DNA of 64,000 nt, from positions 1 to 64,000 of IMG/VR virus record IMGVR_UViG_3300007504_000006; one strand, 5' to 3'. This document shows, in pieces, positions 4,099-44,630 of this stretch. Within the stretch, counting starts at the first letter, position 1, and every line of letters begins with the position of its first letter. The translations under genes were made by a program, and so were the position numbers. The notes beneath the pieces were generated by a model. That model ran no database searches, was not told the DNA's origin, and saw only the letters and a program-made list of their open reading frames with translations. The DNA is from a virus.

Positions 4099-4360
4099 AG
4101 AATACTTCAAAGAAAGTTACAGACTAAGCCCGCTGGCATTTTATTGTGAAATAGGCGAAGCAACTCTTGTTTGCGGTGCCAGTGCAATATTAACATATAC
4201 TGTATTAGATCCTGCTACTAAAATATTCATACCTATGATGTTTGTAGGCAGTATTTTAGGTGTTATTAGTACATTTAATCGTAAAGCGGCTTTTGCAATT
4301 TTTCTTACTAGTTGGTTTGTAGTAATGAATTCTATTGCATTAATTAAACTTTTTGGTTGA
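4052..4360 (+). CDS. small membrane protein (about 3 TM)
   Basis: Hydrophobic segments in track ORF 4019..4360; ATG at 4052 chosen as start. Confidence 0.65.
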   Translation: MSKIKITIDSVFSNVKEYFKESYRLSPLAFYCEIGEATLVCGASAILTYTVLDPATKIFIPMMFVGSILGVISTFNRKAAFAIFLTSWFVVMNSIALIKLFG

Positions 4361-4384
4361 CAAATATCTTAAAGATAGTATAAT
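4357..4384 (+). promoter_or_regulatory. sigma70-type (early) promoter
   Basis: TTGACA (4357-4362), 16-nt spacer, TATAAT (4379-4384); both hexamers are consensus. Confidence 0.75.
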
Positions 4385-4417
4385 ATATGTATTAGTTAAA
4401 CTTTATTGGAGTTCTCA

Positions 4418-7378: not shown

Positions 7379-8087
7379 CAGTTTTTTCATGTGGGATATG
7401 GGTGTATTCCCACTTAAATTTCTCGGCGTCCCATTCGCTTTCAGTTCCTTTATTAACAACAATATTCATTACAAATGTTAATCTTTTTTCATTTTCCTGG
7501 AATGGATATACTTGATGCAATAAATCAAAATCATAAATCATACCAAAATTTTTCTGTGGTATTATATTCATTAATTCTTGATCTTTTATTATAACATGAC
7601 ATCCCTTATAAGATGCATTATTGGTGATCTCTTGGGTTTTCATATTAAAAAATCGTGATTTCAAATTTCGACCGAATGAGGTTTCTAAAGCAGAATCAAA
7701 ATCATTAAGAAAATATATAAAATTAAAATCATTTGCTTCGTGTATGTGAAGAGGATTAAATTCATTTTTCCTCATTACATTTAGCCATGATGATCGAATT
7801 AGTACATCATTCTTTTCAATTTTTTTAAACTTGCCCATTCTATTATTCAAATCGTGTTCTATATGAGCATGTATAATTTGATTAAACGTGTCTAAATAAA
7901 ATTCATCTAATACCCCATGATTAATAATATATTCATTTTCTATTTCTCCTACCAACATATTATTAGCCTTGGCACCACTTTGATTTATCATAGAAAGAAG
8001 AGAATTACTAAAATTATCAGTAAACGAATCGGTCGCTTCAAAAAAAGTTAAAATTTTATCTTGAAAAGTTTTATGAAATATTTTCAT
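7359..8087 (-). CDS. 2OG-Fe(II) oxygenase-like protein (HxH type)
   Basis: SWLN...EFNPLHIH, LLHQVYPF, RLTFVMN. Confidence 0.75.
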   Translation of the reverse strand: MKIFHKTFQDKILTFFEATDSFTDNFSNSLLSMINQSGAKANNMLVGEIENEYIINHGVLDEFYLDTFNQIIHAHIEHDLNNRMGKFKKIEKNDVLIRSSWLNVMRKNEFNPLHIHEANDFNFIYFLNDFDSALETSFGRNLKSRFFNMKTQEITNNASYKGCHVIIKDQELMNIIPQKNFGMIYDFDLLHQVYPFQENEKRLTFVMNIVVNKGTESEWDAEKFKWEYTHIPHEKTDARNNI

Positions 8088-9727
8088 TTTTTAATTACCG
8101 TAACGTATATACCATTCCACCATTGTGTAGGATTTTCTATTGTGTTTAATACTTTTTTATGAAAAATAAGCTCATGATCTATTTGTTCTAATCCTTTCAT
8201 TGCTCCTATAACAACATTAGGAAAATTTGCGTCATCAAAAATACAAATACATTCGTCTGCAAAACAATCTTTATAATACATTATTGCTTTTTCTATTGTT
8301 TCACTTTCGTGTGGCCCATCGTAAAAAAACAAATCAATATTTTTAATGTCTTTTAAATTTGTATCAAATAAATCACATTCATATGCTGTTACAGAATTAT
8401 TCCCCTTAAACTGTTTTACATTTTTAATAAATTCTTCTTTAGAATTAGGAGGTAAAATTAATTCTTGTGTTAATGGTTGTAAATCTTCTTTCCATGTATC
8501 TACACAAAATGCATTAATATTATTATCTTTCAATACTGCACATGTGCTTAATCCTAAATACGATCCAATTTCTAAATAATTTGTAGAAATACTACCTAAA
8601 CTATTAAGTAAATTAACAATTTTTTGAGAAGATAATCCGTCAATCTCTACTATGATATCCTTATTAACAGAATCTACCAATTCTTTTGTTACATATTTTA
8701 TTTTATCATTACCTTTTATTACACTTTTTTTGTCATACACTTTATCACAATAATGACAATCCCAACATTCAAACTTACAAGTTTTTATTTTTTCACGCCA
8801 TATGTTTATAGGAGCATCTACTAAATTTGTTTCATCTATAAATTCATTAAATGTATCAAATAATATTTCCTTATCTTCGGCATAATTTTTTATAATATGC
8901 ATGGTTTCATTTAATCTAGAAGTATTTTCTCTTCCATGCATTTTAATAACATCAACATATTCTAATAATTCATCCCAATCTTCTTTCCATGGAGGAAAGT
9001 TAGCGGATTTTAAAGGAACAGCCATATCTTCTTGGTCCCATTTATCACACGATACTCTAGACATAGGATCATTAAAATACTGAGCTTCGTTTGTTCTAGA
9101 ATTATTAAATTCATAATGTTCATCCATCATAGGACAATTACCTATGCATCCTTCGTTTGCTAACAATGATAACTTGACTCCAGCATGTTCTTTAGCACGT
9201 TTCATATCTTTTAATTTGTCATGGTCTCGCATTAGATCACGATCTAAATTAACATAGTTAAATCCTGCTTCACCTAAAGCAACTACTTCTCGTGGTTCGG
9301 TTACATTCCGTAATATTGTGTTTTTAATTTCTAATTCAGGAAATGCTGATTGTATTTGTTTTGTTGCAACCCAATGAGTATGTGGAATCGTTGCACTTCG
9401 AACAACTCCGGTATCATAAAGTTGTTTAAAATTTTGTAAAAATAAATCTAAATTATTTTGTGATGGTCGAACTAAAGTATTATTAAATGTTGCAGAAAGT
9501 TGAATACCTGTATCTTTTGATACGTTTATAGCATTGTCTAATATAGATAAATGATCTGGTGGACCATTAAACACATCGCCCATTGCATCTTGAACAAAAG
9601 GTGGCATTCTACTAGTAAAATAAAGATCATATATATAATCTTTATAGGTATGTAAAAAGCCTAAAAAATCATTAAATTGTGGTTCCGTCAATTTTGGATT
9701 GATCGGTATGCTGAATATTTTCTTCAT
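8084..9727 (-). CDS. U32-peptidase-like (putative Fe-S) domain fused to a class I SAM methyltransferase (Methyltransf_24-like)
   Basis: N-terminal LDRDL, ANEGCIGNC...H...C, KMHGR and CKFECWDCHYC; C-terminal YLEIGSYLGLST, CVDTW, DLFFYDGPH, CIFDD. Confidence 0.7.
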   Translation of the reverse strand: MKKIFSIPINPKLTEPQFNDFLGFLHTYKDYIYDLYFTSRMPPFVQDAMGDVFNGPPDHLSILDNAINVSKDTGIQLSATFNNTLVRPSQNNLDLFLQNFKQLYDTGVVRSATIPHTHWVATKQIQSAFPELEIKNTILRNVTEPREVVALGEAGFNYVNLDRDLMRDHDKLKDMKRAKEHAGVKLSLLANEGCIGNCPMMDEHYEFNNSRTNEAQYFNDPMSRVSCDKWDQEDMAVPLKSANFPPWKEDWDELLEYVDVIKMHGRENTSRLNETMHIIKNYAEDKEILFDTFNEFIDETNLVDAPINIWREKIKTCKFECWDCHYCDKVYDKKSVIKGNDKIKYVTKELVDSVNKDIIVEIDGLSSQKIVNLLNSLGSISTNYLEIGSYLGLSTCAVLKDNNINAFCVDTWKEDLQPLTQELILPPNSKEEFIKNVKQFKGNNSVTAYECDLFDTNLKDIKNIDLFFYDGPHESETIEKAIMYYKDCFADECICIFDDANFPNVVIGAMKGLEQIDHELIFHKKVLNTIENPTQWWNGIYVTVIKK

Positions 9728-11015
9728 CTAATTTTATTTCAAATAATTTTTTACTATCAGTTAATAGTGGCATTTGTAATCCTTCGAGTGCTTTTTCAGA
9801 ATTAATCTGGCCTTCAACTTGTTTATTAATCTGTCCTATTGTATTAGTTAACAAACCAGAAAAATGTAATGCACCTCTTAATGTTTCTAATTGATCTTCT
9901 TCTGGCATTAATAAGATAGAATCCATATTACCCGAACCTACCCGACCATATGCTATAATATCCATTGCCGCCTGCTTTTGCATTCTAGCCATCCAATATT
10001 TTCGTTCTTCTGTGTCGTCTTCTTTTAAATATTCGTCTAAGTTTTTTTCTTTTGTTTTTTCTAAAAGCTCTAAATATGTTCTAAGTTCGCGTTCACATTG
10101 ACTCATTTTTCGTTTAAAAACAGTTATGTCGTACATTAAGTCTTCGAGCTTAATAACCATCAATTCTTTTTCTAACTGATCCGGTTCTTTTTTAATGTCT
10201 CGTTCAATTATTTTTACACGAACTTCTGCTTCTCGTAAATTTCTTACAATAGATTTATATGCATGATATCGTGTTTCTAACTCCATAAATGATTGATGAA
10301 TTTTTTTGTAAGGAGTTATTCCTGTTTTTTGCACAAAATTAATAGAAGAATAATTAGACTGCCCATTATCAAATTGAAGGGCTGTTTCTAATACTTTTTC
10401 TTCTTCGGGCGAAAAACTTAAATGGTCTCTTACCCAAGTGTCTACTTTTATATTTGTTACATCGCTACTTACAATATCTGTTTTATTGTGTAGCATATCT
10501 GGTAAATTATTTGTTTGTTCCATAAGTCGTCCAAAACTATTATTAAAAATTTTATTATAAATTGAAAATAAATCTTCTCGATCTTTATCTGAACTACCGT
10601 TATTAATACATCCTAACGGAAATGCAGTATTTTTATTAAATCTTTCTTCGTCCCATAATAAACAATTTTTAAAATTATCTTTATTATTAATAATTTTTCT
10701 TTTGTTAAAAACACAACCAAATTTGCCTAATGTTTTAGGAAAAAATATACAAAAATTTTCTATTGTATCATGTGTTTTAATATTAAAATATTCTTGTATA
10801 AATTCTTTAAATGTTAAGCCAGTTTTAAATTTTATGTCATCTTCTCTTACTAGTTCATTATTTACGTATTTTAAATATATGTTTTCTACATTTTCTAACG
10901 TCGCATATCCAGGATCTTTGCAACAAGGATTTTTTAAACATGATTGGCATGGTTGGGGTGTGCATTTAGAGTTTTTTTGAAGTTCGTATAATTTTTCTGT
11001 TACTTTTTTAAACAT
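9672..11015 (-). CDS. Cys-cluster (CxxCxxxCC, YkgJ-like) N-terminal domain fused to a coiled-coil phage protein
   Basis: CQSCLKNPCCKDPG...GCVF...CLLW...FPLGC, then a helical C-terminal half (WMARMQKQAAMDIIAYGRVGSGNMDSI). Confidence 0.55.
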   Translation of the reverse strand: MFKKVTEKLYELQKNSKCTPQPCQSCLKNPCCKDPGYATLENVENIYLKYVNNELVREDDIKFKTGLTFKEFIQEYFNIKTHDTIENFCIFFPKTLGKFGCVFNKRKIINNKDNFKNCLLWDEERFNKNTAFPLGCINNGSSDKDREDLFSIYNKIFNNSFGRLMEQTNNLPDMLHNKTDIVSSDVTNIKVDTWVRDHLSFSPEEEKVLETALQFDNGQSNYSSINFVQKTGITPYKKIHQSFMELETRYHAYKSIVRNLREAEVRVKIIERDIKKEPDQLEKELMVIKLEDLMYDITVFKRKMSQCERELRTYLELLEKTKEKNLDEYLKEDDTEERKYWMARMQKQAAMDIIAYGRVGSGNMDSILLMPEEDQLETLRGALHFSGLLTNTIGQINKQVEGQINSEKALEGLQMPLLTDSKKLFEIKLDEENIQHTDQSKIDGTTI

Positions 11016-42331: not shown

Positions 42332-42527
42332 AACACCATGGATTGATAGAAGATCATTATTAGACATAACTCAACAATCTAGAGGAGGAGCTGGATTGGC
42401 ACCATTAGATATGGGATATGTATACGTCTTTAAAAACGGAGAAACCAGACATTGTTTAGATGACTCGGAGGCATATAACTTTTATGCAGATAACAAAGAA
42501 CGACTTGACTCAGAACCAACAATTTAA
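42324..42527 (+). CDS. hypothetical protein
   Basis: 67-aa ORF overlapping the gp46 stop. Confidence 0.5.
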   Translation: MSETPWIDRRSLLDITQQSRGGAGLAPLDMGYVYVFKNGETRHCLDDSEAYNFYADNKERLDSEPTI

Positions 42528-43236
42528 ATTTTTTATAGCGGCCCCGTTTGGCAATTATATTAAACATAAAAATGCAATTAATGTTAGAGGTTCTTTTACA
42601 ATATTACGTAGACCAGGATTAATTAAACAACTATTTAGAACTCTTAGATATGATTTTTCTAAAAAAGGATGGAAGAACGAATTAGGACTCCGTAATCCGG
42701 GTATAAAACACGGACTTAATAAATACAGAAACAACGGCAAAGAAGTTATAAGTATTGCCGCAATTATGCCTAGAGATTGGGGTGACTTTGCAAAAGACAT
42801 ACCCGATCATGTAAACTTAGAATTAAATTTAAGTTGTCCAAATATCGATAAAGTAGAAATAGATTATAAAGCTCTTACTAAGTTTTATAATGCATTTTGG
42901 GATAATAAACGAGAATGGTGTATAGCCAAAATATCGCCCCTATCTACAGAGGACGAAATCAAGCGATTATTAGACATTGGGTTTGGTCAGATCCACTGCT
43001 CCAACACCCTCCCTATTACTGGCGGAGGATTGAGCGGAAAGGAATTGATAAGTTACACGATCAAACTCATAGATTACATAAAGACACACTTTCCCTCAGT
43101 GAAGATTATCGCAGGAGGAGGGATTGATCATATAGATATTGTAAATTACTATAAAGGTAAAGGTGCAGATTATTTCAGTTTAGGAACTGTATGTTTTACA
43201 CCTTGGAAATTATCAAAAATACTTAATGCCAAGTAA
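42484..43236 (+). CDS. dihydroorotate dehydrogenase-like FMN-binding barrel, short form
   Basis: N..GL.NPG, ELNLSCPN (catalytic Cys loop), AKISP, SNT, GGLSG, IIAGGGI; start codon uncertain. Confidence 0.75.
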   Translation: MQITKNDLTQNQQFKFFIAAPFGNYIKHKNAINVRGSFTILRRPGLIKQLFRTLRYDFSKKGWKNELGLRNPGIKHGLNKYRNNGKEVISIAAIMPRDWGDFAKDIPDHVNLELNLSCPNIDKVEIDYKALTKFYNAFWDNKREWCIAKISPLSTEDEIKRLLDIGFGQIHCSNTLPITGGGLSGKELISYTIKLIDYIKTHFPSVKIIAGGGIDHIDIVNYYKGKGADYFSLGTVCFTPWKLSKILNAK

Positions 43237-43756
43237 AAGTAAAATAAAAGGCAGTTCATTTGAAAGAGAAATAGCAAAAGAACTATCGGATTTATATAAT
43301 GAGAGCTTTGTAAGAACTCCATCGTCGGGTGCTTATGTTGGCGGCTCTAATGTTGCAAGAAAAGATTTTTTATCCGAGGGTCAGGTACAATCCTTCAGAG
43401 GAGACATAATACCACCCGACGACTGGAAATATTTTAATGTTGAATGTAAATCGTATGCTGATTTCCCTTTCCACCAATTACTATACCAAGGCGATATTAG
43501 ACTATTAGATGAATGGATAGAACAAATACTAGAAGTGGCAGAAGAAAAAGATTTAAACTTATTGATACTAAAATTTAACCGCAAAGGCAAATACATAGGC
43601 TTCCAAGAACACTTACTTAATTCCTCATTTTATACATATAGACACGCAAATTATAAAGGCTGGATTTTTACAAGCTACAAAGATTTTATGGAACAAAACA
43701 ATGGCTCAATTAAATACCTCTCAGTTGAAGGGGTACCACAGCCTCTATTGTCGTAA
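43226..43756 (+). CDS. Holliday junction resolvase-like PD-(D/E)xK nuclease
   Basis: SKIKGSSFERE, R..SSGA, GDI, VECK. Confidence 0.75.
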   Translation: MPSKSKIKGSSFEREIAKELSDLYNESFVRTPSSGAYVGGSNVARKDFLSEGQVQSFRGDIIPPDDWKYFNVECKSYADFPFHQLLYQGDIRLLDEWIEQILEVAEEKDLNLLILKFNRKGKYIGFQEHLLNSSFYTYRHANYKGWIFTSYKDFMEQNNGSIKYLSVEGVPQPLLS

Positions 43757-44100
43757 GACCGGTTGAGAACGAGTACGCTCGTTCGGATCTCCGTGGCAAA
43801 AGCAGAAAAAATGAGTAGGCTCTCCTGACAATTGGAACCTACAAGGTATATAAGGTAGATCTAATTGCTTTATATAAACCTGCGTTGGATAAGCAGAACG
43901 TAAAAAGGTACAGCCCAACCGCCTTAACCTATTTGGTTGTTCTATTAGAATGTGCTATGTCCGAAGGAAATAGTTATCTTAGCCTTAAACAGGCTAAGTG
44001 TGACTTGACTCTCAGGAAATAGTTAAATAGTAATAGTATAAATTCGATCTGAATTACGAAGTAATGAAAGATCGTGATGAGCTTTAGCTCATCATTAAAG
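43757..44100 (+). ncRNA. candidate structured non-coding element (RNA or ssDNA), class unknown
   Basis: Longest intergenic gap in the window. Consecutive stems at 43767-84, 43815-42, 43845-80, 43881-902, 43905-25, 43972-44005, 44045-74 and 44075-94, plus a 12-nt direct repeat. Confidence 0.6.
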
Positions 44101-44108
44101 GAAGGTAA

Positions 44109-44630
44109 ATGAAACTAACAGAATTTGATTATCCTCAAATATACTGCGACATGGACGGCGTTTTAGTAGATTTAATAGAAGGTGCAACAAAAATATTAGG
44201 TTATAATTTTGCTGAACGTTATGGTTACGTTTCAGGAAAGCACGAACTATGGGATAAATTAGCAGAAGAAAAATTATTTTGGGCAGAGTTACCTCCTATG
44301 CCTGATATGAAACAACTTTGGGGATTTATATCAACTTTCCAACCTTATATATTAACCGCTGTTCCTGCTGTTCGGTTAATATGGGATCCTCCAGCAGGAA
44401 TTCAAAAAGCAATGTGGTGTGAAAAAAACTTAGGTATTAGCAAAGATAGAGTGTATGCTGTAAAACGCTCAGATAAAAAACACTTTGCTAAATCGCACGA
44501 CGGTCGACCTAATATATTAATTGATGACCATCAACAAAATATTAATGAATGGAATAAAGCAGGAGGAAAAGGAATACTCCACACATCTGCAAGTAACAGT
44601 ATTAAACAATTAGAAGGTATTGGCTTCTAA
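44109..44630 (+). CDS. HAD-superfamily 5'(3')-deoxyribonucleotidase-like protein
   Basis: IYCDMDGVLVD, ILTA, K..W, ILIDD, W..AGG.GILH. Confidence 0.85.
   Translation: MKLTEFDYPQIYCDMDGVLVDLIEGATKILGYNFAERYGYVSGKHELWDKLAEEKLFWAELPPMPDMKQLWGFISTFQPYILTAVPAVRLIWDPPAGIQKAMWCEKNLGISKDRVYAVKRSDKKHFAKSHDGRPNILIDDHQQNINEWNKAGGKGILHTSASNSIKQLEGIGF

What the first reader, a model, noticed from the sequence alone, without database searches (positions are those of the whole stretch)
43757..44108. ~350-nt hairpin-dense intergenic element next to the Holliday-junction resolvase: candidate large ncRNA or ssDNA origin
Seen: this is the only long non-coding gap in a genome where genes otherwise abut. It is tiled with stems: GAACGAG-TACG-CTCGTTC (43767-84); GTAGG..CCTAC (43815-42); a 12-bp stem with three G-U pairs (43847-76); TGCGTT..AACGTA (43881-902); AAGGT..GCCTT (43905-25); AGTTAT-CTTAGCCT-TAAAC-AGGCTAAG-TGTGACT (43972-44005); CGATCT..ATTAC-GAA-GTAAT..AGATCG (44045-74); TGATGAGC-TTTA-GCTCATCA (44075-94). 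AGGAAATAGTTA occurs twice (43965-76, 44014-25), and either copy can pair with TAACCTATTT (43925-34, one bulge). GTTGG (43884-88) can pair with CCAAC (43915-19). G-U pairs favour a plus-strand RNA. Two C-GAA-G triloops (43960-68, 44053-65), known as very stable DNA mini-hairpins, would fit a ssDNA origin or priming signal instead. I cannot assign it to a known family.
Basis: partly seen in the sequence, partly recalled or inferred. Interest (0 to 1): 0.8.

Follow-up and report, generated by a model that had tools for sequence, protein, structure and literature searches.

The report
Minimal Polynucleobacter-1-type phage RNA
The gene-free 350 bases behind a small nuclease gene of this uncultured marine giant phage encode a real, knotted non-coding RNA, a stripped-down relative of an orphan RNA motif catalogued in 2010 whose job is still unknown.

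Summary
The hairpin-dense gap is real. It is a plus-strand structured RNA of about 340 nt (43757-44094). It folds far better than shuffles (z -5.9), holds no conserved ORF, and is conserved with compensatory changes in at least 80 IMG/VR phage contigs.

The core contains:
- hairpin S1 and variable hairpin S2
- a pseudoknot, GCGUUNN/NNAACCGC crossed by AAGG/CCUU around an invariant GUACAGC
- hairpins S4 to S6
- a 3' module of two hairpins

G-U pairs occur only on the plus strand.

Rfam does not hit the window. In longer relatives, Rfam's orphan Polynucleobacter-1 motif (RF01718) lies directly 5' of the same core. The window therefore carries a minimal variant in which that domain is replaced by a short P1/P2 clamp.

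Their partner is unknown.

The upstream nuclease is swappable (PDDEXK_15 here, SegE-type GIY-YIG elsewhere). I found no support for an ssDNA origin.

Two reader claims fail: this is not the only long gap, and two of the proposed pairings are not supported.

This scan has already found the family several times on other DNA. Function remains unknown. My best guess is a stand-alone, trans-acting RNA.

The parts
43226..43756 (+). Upstream gene: 176-aa PD-(D/E)xK nuclease (context, not shown to be a partner)
   Evidence: Pfam PF24608 PDDEXK_15, E 1.4e-26. PHROG 244 'RusA-like Holliday junction resolvase'. In other family members a SegE-type GIY-YIG nuclease takes this place.
43757..44094 (+). The whole structured RNA, about 340 nt. 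It starts directly after the nuclease stop codon and ends with the terminal hairpin.
   Evidence: Conservation in relatives begins at the stop codon and ends at the terminal hairpin. Fold z -5.9. No Rfam hit. ORFs 43885-44022(+) and 43745-43918(-) are broken in relatives.
43759..43794 (+). 5' clamp. P1 is (C)CGG 43759-62 paired with CCG(U) 43791-94. It encloses the junction UUGAG (43763-67), hairpin P2 (43767-84, UACG loop) and the junction GGAUCU (43785-90).
   Evidence: P1 covaries across clades: CGG/CCG, CACC/GGUG, UACC/GGUA, CUCA/UGAG. P2 shows A-U to G-C double changes.
43815..43842 (+). S1 hairpin. Outer stem 43815-19/43838-42, inner pairs 43824-26/43833-35, conserved GCUCU...AAC internal loop.
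   Evidence: Outer stem is 100% paired in 52 distinct sequences, and 4 of 5 pairs have changes on both sides. Inner pair 14-30 shows CG, GC, AU and UA.
43844..43881 (+).
   Evidence: A hairpin in all 43 distinct versions despite unrelated sequences. Mean 13 bp, mean z -3.6.
43883..43925 (+). Pseudoknot. P-b is 43883-88 paired with 43915-18 and 43920-21. P-c is 43905-08 paired with 43922-25. The loops GUAAAA and GUACAGC (43908-14) are invariant.
   Evidence: P-b is 94.7% paired with 2 covarying pairs. P-c is 93.8% paired and all 5 pairs covary. No shuffle of 500 reached the observed values, and slid registers collapse.
43926..43950 (+). S4 hairpin (AACC 43926-29 / GGUU 43935-38), which takes inserts in relatives, followed by a weak small hairpin UUC..GAA (43940-50)
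   Evidence: S4 is a hairpin in 34 distinct versions, GNRA-capped in several. A 28-nt insert hairpin in L003, L005 and L008 sits in its loop.
43955..43976 (+). S5 hairpin (CUAU/AUAG with UCC-GAA-GGA tip, 43955-73) carrying twin box 1 (AGGAAAUAGUUA, 43965-76)
   Evidence: S5 is a hairpin in 40 distinct versions.
43978..44005 (+). S6 hairpin CUUAGCC/GGCUAAG (43978-85/43991-98) followed by the invariant GUGUGACU
   Evidence: 87% paired. A-U becomes G-U in 19 sequences and C-G becomes U-G in 7 to 17, on the plus strand only. L037 has a UA to GC double change.
44014..44025 (+). Twin box 2, an identical copy of box 1
44026..44044 (+). Short AT-rich spacer, 20 to 130 nt in relatives. It ends in TATAAATT (44037-44), which resembles a T4-type late promoter.
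   Evidence: Sequence. TATAAATA-like words occur in the spacers of several relatives. Function not tested.
44045..44074 (+). 3' module hairpin: outer stem, purine-rich internal loop (UGAA / UGAAA), inner stem with GAA loop
   Evidence: Compensatory changes in both stems within the window clade. The same architecture occurs in types A and B.
44075..44094 (+). Terminal hairpin UGAUGAGC/GCUCAUCA without a U tract. It probably marks or protects the 3' end.
   Evidence: The first pair changes UA to CG in 5 of 11 relatives. The scan does not call it a terminator.
44098..44630 (+). Ribosome-binding site and downstream gene, a 5'-deoxyribonucleotidase-like protein (context only)
   Evidence: PHROG 2643, E 9e-23. 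The downstream gene differs, or lies on the other strand, in other family members.

Best explanation
What it is (shown): a single-copy, plus-strand gene for a compact, pseudoknotted non-coding RNA of about 340 nt. It is the smallest known form of a phage RNA family. The family's longer members (450-620 nt) begin with the orphan Rfam motif Polynucleobacter-1. In the window that domain is replaced by a 36-nt clamp (P1/P2).

How it probably works (inferred):
- It acts as a stand-alone, trans-acting folded RNA. It does not regulate a neighbouring gene.
- The invariant junctions around the pseudoknot (GUAAAA, GUACAGC, UGUG, GUGUGACU) form the functional centre, which either binds something or is catalytic.
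- The 5' domain is an exchangeable peripheral support.
- The two identical words, in S5 and in the tail, are two exposed reading sites for one common partner. That partner is most simply a nucleic acid recognised by base pairing, because both copies change together.
- The two 3' hairpins end and protect the transcript.
- In this phage the RNA is made by read-through from the Mre11-Rad50-nuclease operon. Type-B relatives have their own promoter.
For: Structure:
- Fold z -5.9.
- Covariation in P1, P2, S1, P-b, P-c, S6 and the 3' hairpins.
- G-U pairs occur only in the plus sense.
- S2, S4 and S5 keep their shape while their sequence varies.
- It is not coding.

Family:
- At least 80 IMG/VR contigs.
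- 55 hits to core model R1, with E-values from 2e-43 to 8e-17.
- One copy per genome.
- RF01718 lies directly 5' of the core in type-A members. The core is also visible in the flanks of the 2010 alignment.

Independence from its neighbours:
- The downstream gene and its strand vary.
- The nuclease is either PDDEXK or GIY-YIG, found with either 5' domain type, and is absent in the L064 lineage.
- Type-B members carry a conserved near-consensus sigma-70 promoter just upstream of the RNA, in 15 of 19 distinct upstream regions.

Twin boxes:
- A shared word of 7 nt or more occurs in 79% of 48 RNAs, against 8% for shuffles.
- Both copies change together, for example AGUCAAG/AGACAAG and AGGAUAAU/AGGUUAAU.
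Against: - No transcript data worth the name. The RNA-library contigs are few and shallow. One bridges 43697-43863, and DNA carry-over is possible.
- No partner was found for the boxes, inside the RNA or nearby.
- No protein partner is known.
- About 67 of 74 loci with enough upstream sequence have a small nuclease gene directly upstream. This could mean functional coupling and not just conserved gene order.
- No cultured phage carries the RNA, so nothing here is tested at the bench.
Confidence: 0.5

Rival explanations
1. It is a cis-acting 3' UTR of the nuclease mRNA. The fold would stabilise the operon's 3' end, insulate it, or tune expression of a potentially toxic structure-specific nuclease.
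For: - The RNA starts at the nuclease stop codon in the window clade.
- A nuclease gene lies directly upstream in about 67 of 74 loci.
- There is no promoter of its own in types A and C.
- One RNA-library contig bridges the ORF end and the RNA.
Against: - A 340-620-nt pseudoknotted RNA with invariant junctions is far more than a 3' end needs.
- Type-B members have their own strong promoter between the nuclease gene and the RNA.
- The L064/L070 lineage has the RNA without a nuclease.
- Melnitz has the GIY-YIG gene without the RNA.
- Two unrelated nuclease folds would need the same regulator.
Confidence: 0.14
2. It is an RNA-primed (R-loop) replication origin. The folded transcript would run into the AT-rich spacer, stay hybridised to the DNA and prime synthesis, as with ColE1 RNA II or T4 oriF/oriG.
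For: - An AT-rich spacer of 20 to 130 nt follows the core in all members.
- The last stems lack a U tract.
- The locus sits in the replication/recombination module, next to Mre11, Rad50 and the resolvase.
- GAA mini-hairpins occur in the 3' module.
Against: - Cumulative GC skew turns at about 36-37 kb, where the genes change strand. It does not turn at 43.8-44.1 kb.
- The spacer is only about 20 nt in the window.
- The 3' hairpins covary as RNA.
- Nothing in the data shows initiation.
Confidence: 0.12
3. The RNA works with the neighbouring nuclease. The twin boxes would guide, aim or restrain DNA cutting, or a branched RNA would act as a decoy.
For: - The RNA keeps its place beside small catalytic-domain-only nucleases of two different folds.
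- The co-varying twin boxes look like sequence-reading elements.
- A diverged member still sits beside a nuclease only 56% identical to the window's.
Against: - The nuclease is exchangeable and sometimes absent.
- No complement of the box exists in the 64 kb window or at a fixed place near the RNA.
- Replacement of a resolvase in the same genome slot explains the adjacency without any coupling.
Confidence: 0.08
4. It is a new large ribozyme, self-cleaving or self-processing, or a degenerate intron-like element tied to a homing-type nuclease.
For: - Invariant unpaired nucleotides surround a pseudoknot.
- It is linked to GIY-YIG (SegE-type) genes.
Against: - No Rfam ribozyme or intron hit, even at E up to 10.
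- No interrupted host gene.
- The P3-P8-P7 order of group I introns is absent: the two pseudoknot 3' strands abut.
- The nuclease is stably inherited and not sporadic.
Confidence: 0.06

Closest known systems
Polynucleobacter-1 RNA motif (Rfam RF01718; Weinberg et al. 2010, Genome Biol 11:R31, PMC2864571)
   Same: - Same RNA family in the wide sense. In L060, L058, L086 and L114 the RF01718 match (84-96 bits) ends about 15 nt before the same S1-pseudoknot-S6 core that the window carries.
- The 2010 alignment flanks, including the Polynucleobacter genome copy, contain this core. The authors had drawn a 'tail' with a possible pseudoknot.
- Both lie downstream of a small phage-type gene.
- Both have no known function.
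   Different: - The window has no RF01718 domain at all: no hit at E up to 10. A 36-nt P1/P2 clamp stands in its place.
- The upstream gene is PDDEXK_15 here, not the GOS11034/GIY-YIG family.
- S4 to S6, the twin boxes and the 3' module are not part of the catalogued motif.
- The 2010 paper found no copy in a purified phage. Here all copies are on viral contigs.
Large 'ornate' orphan RNAs (GOLLD, ROOL, OLE, raiA; Rfam; cryo-EM in bioRxiv 10.1101/2024.12.08.627333)
   Same: Large, multi-domain, pseudoknotted, often carried by phages, known only from comparative genomics, function unknown.
   Different: No sequence or structure match to any of them. It is smaller, at 340-620 nt. It is not associated with tRNA genes. 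Nothing is known about whether it forms multimers.
RNAs encoded beside DNA-cutting or DNA-joining enzymes (IscB/TnpB omega RNAs = HEARO, IS110 bridge RNAs)
   Same: A structured RNA lies directly beside a small nuclease gene, and it has short fast-evolving words that look like reading sequences.
   Different: No homology. The nucleases here are PD-(D/E)xK and GIY-YIG catalytic domains that can be swapped or missing. No target complementary to the boxes was found. No transposon ends.
ColE1 RNA II and T4 oriF/oriG R-loop origins
   Same: A folded or promoter-driven transcript followed by an AT-rich stretch, inside a replication/recombination module.
   Different: No skew or other origin signal. 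No homology. Untested.

Membership tests
Polynucleobacter-1 RNA (Rfam RF01718) as catalogued | Match to the 141-position covariance model at or above 37 bits | tested here: not met
   No hit in the window or the whole 86-kb record, even at E up to 10. The same search gives 84-96 bits in L060, L058, L086 and L114.
Polynucleobacter-1 RNA (Rfam RF01718) as catalogued | Lies downstream of a GOS11034-type gene (here identified as the SegE-type GIY-YIG family) | tested here: not met
   The upstream gene is PDDEXK_15. GIY-YIG genes stand upstream in most type-A and type-B members.
   Window 43811-44005 scores 180.6 bits, E 7e-43. All helices are present and covary in the family. The window sequence was in the seed, so its score follows by construction. 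L033, L017, L031, L037, L061 and L009 were not in the seed and score 76-154 bits.
   An identical 12-mer at 43965-76 and 44014-25.
   44045-74 and 44075-94.
Group I intron with homing endonuclease | Covariance-model match, an interrupted host gene, and P3/P7 pseudoknot with P8 between the 3' strands | tested here: not met
   No Rfam hit. The flanking genes are complete and unrelated to each other. The two 3' strands of the pseudoknot abut, with no hairpin between them.
GOLLD / ROOL / OLE / raiA / HEARO | Match to the family covariance model | tested here: not met
   No match in the window or in 11 related loci.
Box C/D (k-turn) RNA | C and D boxes in the right order, reaching the family score | tested here: not met
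   The only hit is SNORD51 at 20 bits against a cut-off of 50, E 1.1, on the minus strand. The plus-strand internal loop does not fit the k-turn pattern of a 3-nt bulge followed by G-A pairs (reading).
Cis-regulatory leader or riboswitch of the downstream gene | The same downstream gene family on the same strand | tested here: not met
   Downstream genes differ, and in type A they are convergent.
ssDNA or R-loop replication origin | Strand-composition turn or other sign of initiation at the site | tested here: inconclusive
   No GC-skew turn at 43.8-44.1 kb. Phage skew follows transcription, so this is weak evidence. Initiation itself cannot be tested with these tools.

The most novel reading that the evidence does not exclude
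The twin boxes are guide-like sequences that pair with a nucleic-acid target, DNA or RNA, somewhere in the phage or host. Through them the RNA would direct or gate a DNA transaction of the neighbouring replication/recombination module, either nuclease action or R-loop priming. That would be a new kind of RNA-read DNA processing in giant phages.
Probability: 0.07. Interest if true: 0.9.

Novelty: new variant of a known kind. Interest (0 to 1): 0.5.

Why it matters
Large, intricately folded RNAs of unknown function are rare. Each one studied so far has revealed new biology.

This family is widespread in uncultured marine and freshwater giant T4-like phages. The catalogue holds only one exchangeable third of it. 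The window shows that the catalogued part is dispensable, and that the real conserved unit is the pseudoknotted core with its twin boxes. This explains why database searches miss many members.

The minimal 340-nt form is the most convenient member for chemical probing, cryo-EM and binding studies.

The pair of identical, co-varying words gives a concrete handle for finding the partner.

Tried and rejected
- **Rfam:** the whole window at gathering scores and the region at E up to 10 gave only a chance snoRNA hit. No tRNA or tmRNA.
- **Coding:** both overlapping ORFs are broken in relatives.
- **Cultured phages:**
  - blastn of the window and of type-A and type-B RNAs against 50,697 phage records found no RNA match.
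  - Model R1 found nothing in the complete PA5oct and Melnitz genomes.
  - The four published PA5oct ncRNAs lie elsewhere in that genome.
- **Bacterial genomes:** the core pattern gave 0 hits. An RF01718-type pattern gave one hit, a 1.3-kb MAG contig.
- **Expression:** four RNA-library runs gave only five shallow contigs. None covers the core, and one bridges the ORF end into the first 107 nt. This is evidence neither for nor against expression.
- **Promoter and terminator scan of the window:** nothing above chance.
- **Origin:** no skew signal.
- **Partner of the twin boxes:**
  - No complement at a fixed position.
  - No enrichment of the box in the window.
  - The idea that box 2 is an alternative partner for the 5' strand of S5 fits the window clade (-8.1 against -8.6 kcal/mol; shuffles -3.6). 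Across the family it is weak (-6.1 against -5.3, p 0.04).
- **K-turn reading** of the 3' internal loop: the pattern does not fit.
- **Published work:** a 2023 survey of structured RNAs in IMG/VR only reports motifs up to 151 nt.

Full report
**Setting.** The window is the first 64 kb of an 86,248-bp viral contig, 34.7% G+C, which CheckV rates about 35% complete. The phage is therefore probably a giant one. Around the finding lie, on the plus strand, an Mre11-like phosphoesterase, a Rad50-like ATPase, a DHO_dh-like protein, a 176-aa PDDEXK_15 nuclease (43226-43756) and a 5'-deoxyribonucleotidase-like gene (44109-44630). A T4-type baseplate protein lies on the minus strand. By Rad50 the closest cultured relatives are the Pseudomonas jumbo phage PA5oct (52% identity) and Agrobacterium phage Atu_ph07.

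**Observation.**
- As plus-strand RNA they fold to -104.7 kcal/mol, against -76.8 +/- 4.7 for dinucleotide shuffles (z -5.9). The minus strand gives z -4.0.
- The two ORFs that overlap the region (45 and 57 codons) carry stops and frameshifts in relatives.
- The claim that this is the only long gap is wrong. Gaps of 307, 621 and 277 nt also exist. The first two were folded and fold no better than shuffles.

**Relatives.**
- The nuclease protein recovered 39 IMG/VR loci. In 16 of them the gap is 77-94% identical to the window's, which is about as conserved as the protein.
- An 11-sequence alignment already showed 22 pairs with compensatory changes.
- A pattern built from three invariant blocks, GTACAGC-NN-AACCGC, 68-98 nt, then GGCTAAGTGT, hit 80 viral contigs with 44 distinct cores. 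Eighty was the number of stretches listed. Some contigs are 111 to 330 kb long.
- The same pattern hit none of 185,579 bacterial and archaeal species genomes.

**Structure.** I built a 211-position covariance model (R1) from 29 diverse cores. It found 55 full-length matches, with E-values from 2e-43 to 8e-17, including sequences the pattern had missed. On the 52 distinct sequences:
- S1's outer stem is paired in 100% of cells, with changes on both sides at 4 of 5 pairs.
- Helix P-b (GCGUUNN with NNAAC(C)GC) is 95% paired.
- Helix P-c (AAGG with CCUU) is 94% paired, and all 5 pairs covary.
- P-b and P-c cross each other, so they form a pseudoknot. The invariant loops are GUAAAA and GUACAGC.
- No shuffle of 500 reached the observed paired fraction or covariation score, and sliding the partners by one to three columns collapses both measures.
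- S6 (CUUAGCC/GGCUAAG) shows many A-U to G-U and C-G to U-G changes. These would be A-C mismatches on the other strand, so selection acts on a plus-strand RNA.
- S2, S4 and S5 are hairpins in 43, 34 and 40 distinct versions whose sequences are largely unrelated.
- The 5' clamp P1 covaries between clades: CGG/CCG, CACC/GGUG, UACC/GGUA, CUCA/UGAG.
- The two 3' hairpins covary inside the window clade, and their architecture recurs throughout the family.
- Folding the window RNA with these helices enforced costs only 3.6 kcal/mol more than the free minimum.

The stem TGCGTT..AACGTA is displaced by P-b. The proposed pairing of the duplicated word with TAACCTATTT is not supported, because that stretch is the S4 hairpin.

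**Link to a known motif.**
- Rfam does not match the window.
- In four longer relatives Rfam matches Polynucleobacter-1 (RF01718) at 84-96 bits. The match ends about 15 nt before S1.
- The 2010 paper that described the motif says it lies downstream of one gene family. It also says its 3' half is not always detected, and that no purified phage carries it.
- The authors' own alignment file shows, in the flanks, the same core in metagenome scaffolds and in the Polynucleobacter chromosome. It also contains a 'tail' sub-alignment with a tentative pseudoknot.
- The catalogued motif is therefore the 5' third of a larger RNA.
- Among the 80 loci the 5' domain comes in at least three forms:
  - RF01718-like: 25 loci.
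  - A P1/P2 clamp plus a small H-type pseudoknot: 32 loci.
  - The bare P1/P2 clamp of the window clade: 11 loci.
- The window RNA is the minimal form.
- A still more distant member (L026) keeps the clamp and the 3' module but escapes model R1.

**Neighbours.**
- The gene directly upstream is a PDDEXK_15 nuclease in about 21 loci. In about 46 it is a 142-150-aa SegE-type GIY-YIG domain (Pfam E about 1e-32).
- Both nuclease types occur with both large 5' domain types.
- The L064/L070 lineage has the RNA with no nuclease nearby.
- Phage Melnitz has the GIY-YIG gene without the RNA.
- Gene order is otherwise conserved: late sigma factor, Mre11, Rad50, nuclease, RNA, baseplate hub.
- I read the adjacency as conserved gene order with in-place replacement of the resolvase. 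Coupling is not excluded.
- Downstream genes differ, or are convergent, so the RNA is not a leader for them.

**Expression.**
- Type-B members carry a near-consensus sigma-70 promoter overlapping the nuclease stop codon (TTGACA, 17 nt, TATAGT or TATTAT). It reaches 10 or more of 12 positions in 15 of 19 distinct upstream regions.
- Types A and C, including the window, have none, so read-through from the operon is likely there.
- Public RNA libraries gave only five shallow contigs. One spans 43697-43863, across the ORF end into the RNA. This is weak evidence and could reflect DNA carry-over.

**Twin boxes.** I reached RF01718 independently. After that I read earlier notes of this scan. They describe the same family on other DNA and point to a short word present twice. 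I tested this here.
- The longest word shared by the S5 region and the 43 nt after S6 is 7 nt or longer in 79% of 48 distinct RNAs. The figure is 8% for shuffles and 15% for cross-pairs.
- Both copies change together between lineages: AGUCAAG/AGACAAG, UGUCAAG/UGCCAAG/UGUGAAG, AGGAUAAU/AGGUUAAU, AGGAAAUA/AGGGAAUA.
- I found no complement at a fixed place and no enrichment of the word elsewhere in the window.
- Box 2 can replace box 1 as partner of the S5 5' strand in the window clade. That idea is weak across the family.

**Origin hypothesis.** Cumulative GC skew turns where the genes change strand, at about 36-37 kb, and not at this locus. The GAA loops sit in hairpins that covary as RNA. An RNA-primed origin is still possible, since an AT-rich spacer follows the core in all members, but nothing here shows it.

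**Verdict.** This is a real plus-strand structured RNA gene. It is a minimal member, invisible to Rfam, of the extended Polynucleobacter-1 ('twin-box') phage RNA family.
- Shown: identity and structure.
- Inferred: trans action, the pseudoknot as functional centre, and the boxes as reading sites.
- Function: unknown.
- The scan has met this family before on other genomes. What this window adds is the smallest form, beside a PD-(D/E)xK nuclease where most members have a GIY-YIG one, without the catalogued domain.

Noticed in passing
window 4099-4405 and 7463-8083: Two other long gene-free gaps, 307 and 621 nt, the second only about 28% G+C. Neither folds better than shuffles (z -0.2 and +0.3). 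Their content is unexplained, and the second may hide a short or broken minus-strand ORF.
   Followed up: partly
L062:7171-7258 (and the same place in L057, L075, L076 and others): Conserved near-consensus sigma-70 promoters (TTGACA-17-TATAGT with TG, then TTGAAG-18-TATAAT). The first overlaps the GIY-YIG stop codon and both fire into the RNA. They are found only in type-B members.
   Followed up: yes
window 44037-44044; spacers of L055, L062, L099: TATAAATA-like words, the T4 late-promoter consensus, occur in the AT-rich spacer between the core and the 3' hairpins of several members. These phages encode a gp55-like late sigma factor. The 3' module might therefore also be part of a late transcript.
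   Followed up: no
L123 (PA5oct NC_071039.1) 9055-10531: Next to PA5oct's orthologous resolvase gene lies about 1.4 kb with only four tiny annotated ORFs. Model R1 gives no significant hit there (best E 0.31), and none of the four published PA5oct ncRNAs lies there. It could hold an unrelated or very diverged RNA.
   Followed up: partly
L026:3517-3921: The gap behind a nuclease 56% identical to the window's keeps the P1-UUGAG-P2-GGAUACU clamp and the 3' module with its terminal hairpin. Its middle part is not recognised by model R1, so the family reaches further than the model does.
   Followed up: partly
L125 (RFUY01000287.1, 1.3-kb contig of a Gammaproteobacteria MAG): This is the only hit of an RF01718-type pattern in 185,579 species genomes. 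It is probably a phage fragment binned into a MAG.
   Followed up: no
window 42460-43236 and 44109-44630: The RNA is flanked, beyond the nuclease, by a DHO_dh-like TIM-barrel gene and a 5'-deoxyribonucleotidase-like gene. Both are nucleotide-metabolism genes inside the recombination module.
   Followed up: no
L018:3541-4002: In the 342-kb phage contig whose nuclease is 52% identical, the gap behind it also folds well (z -4.5). It shows only terminator-like hairpins and no family motif.
   Followed up: partly
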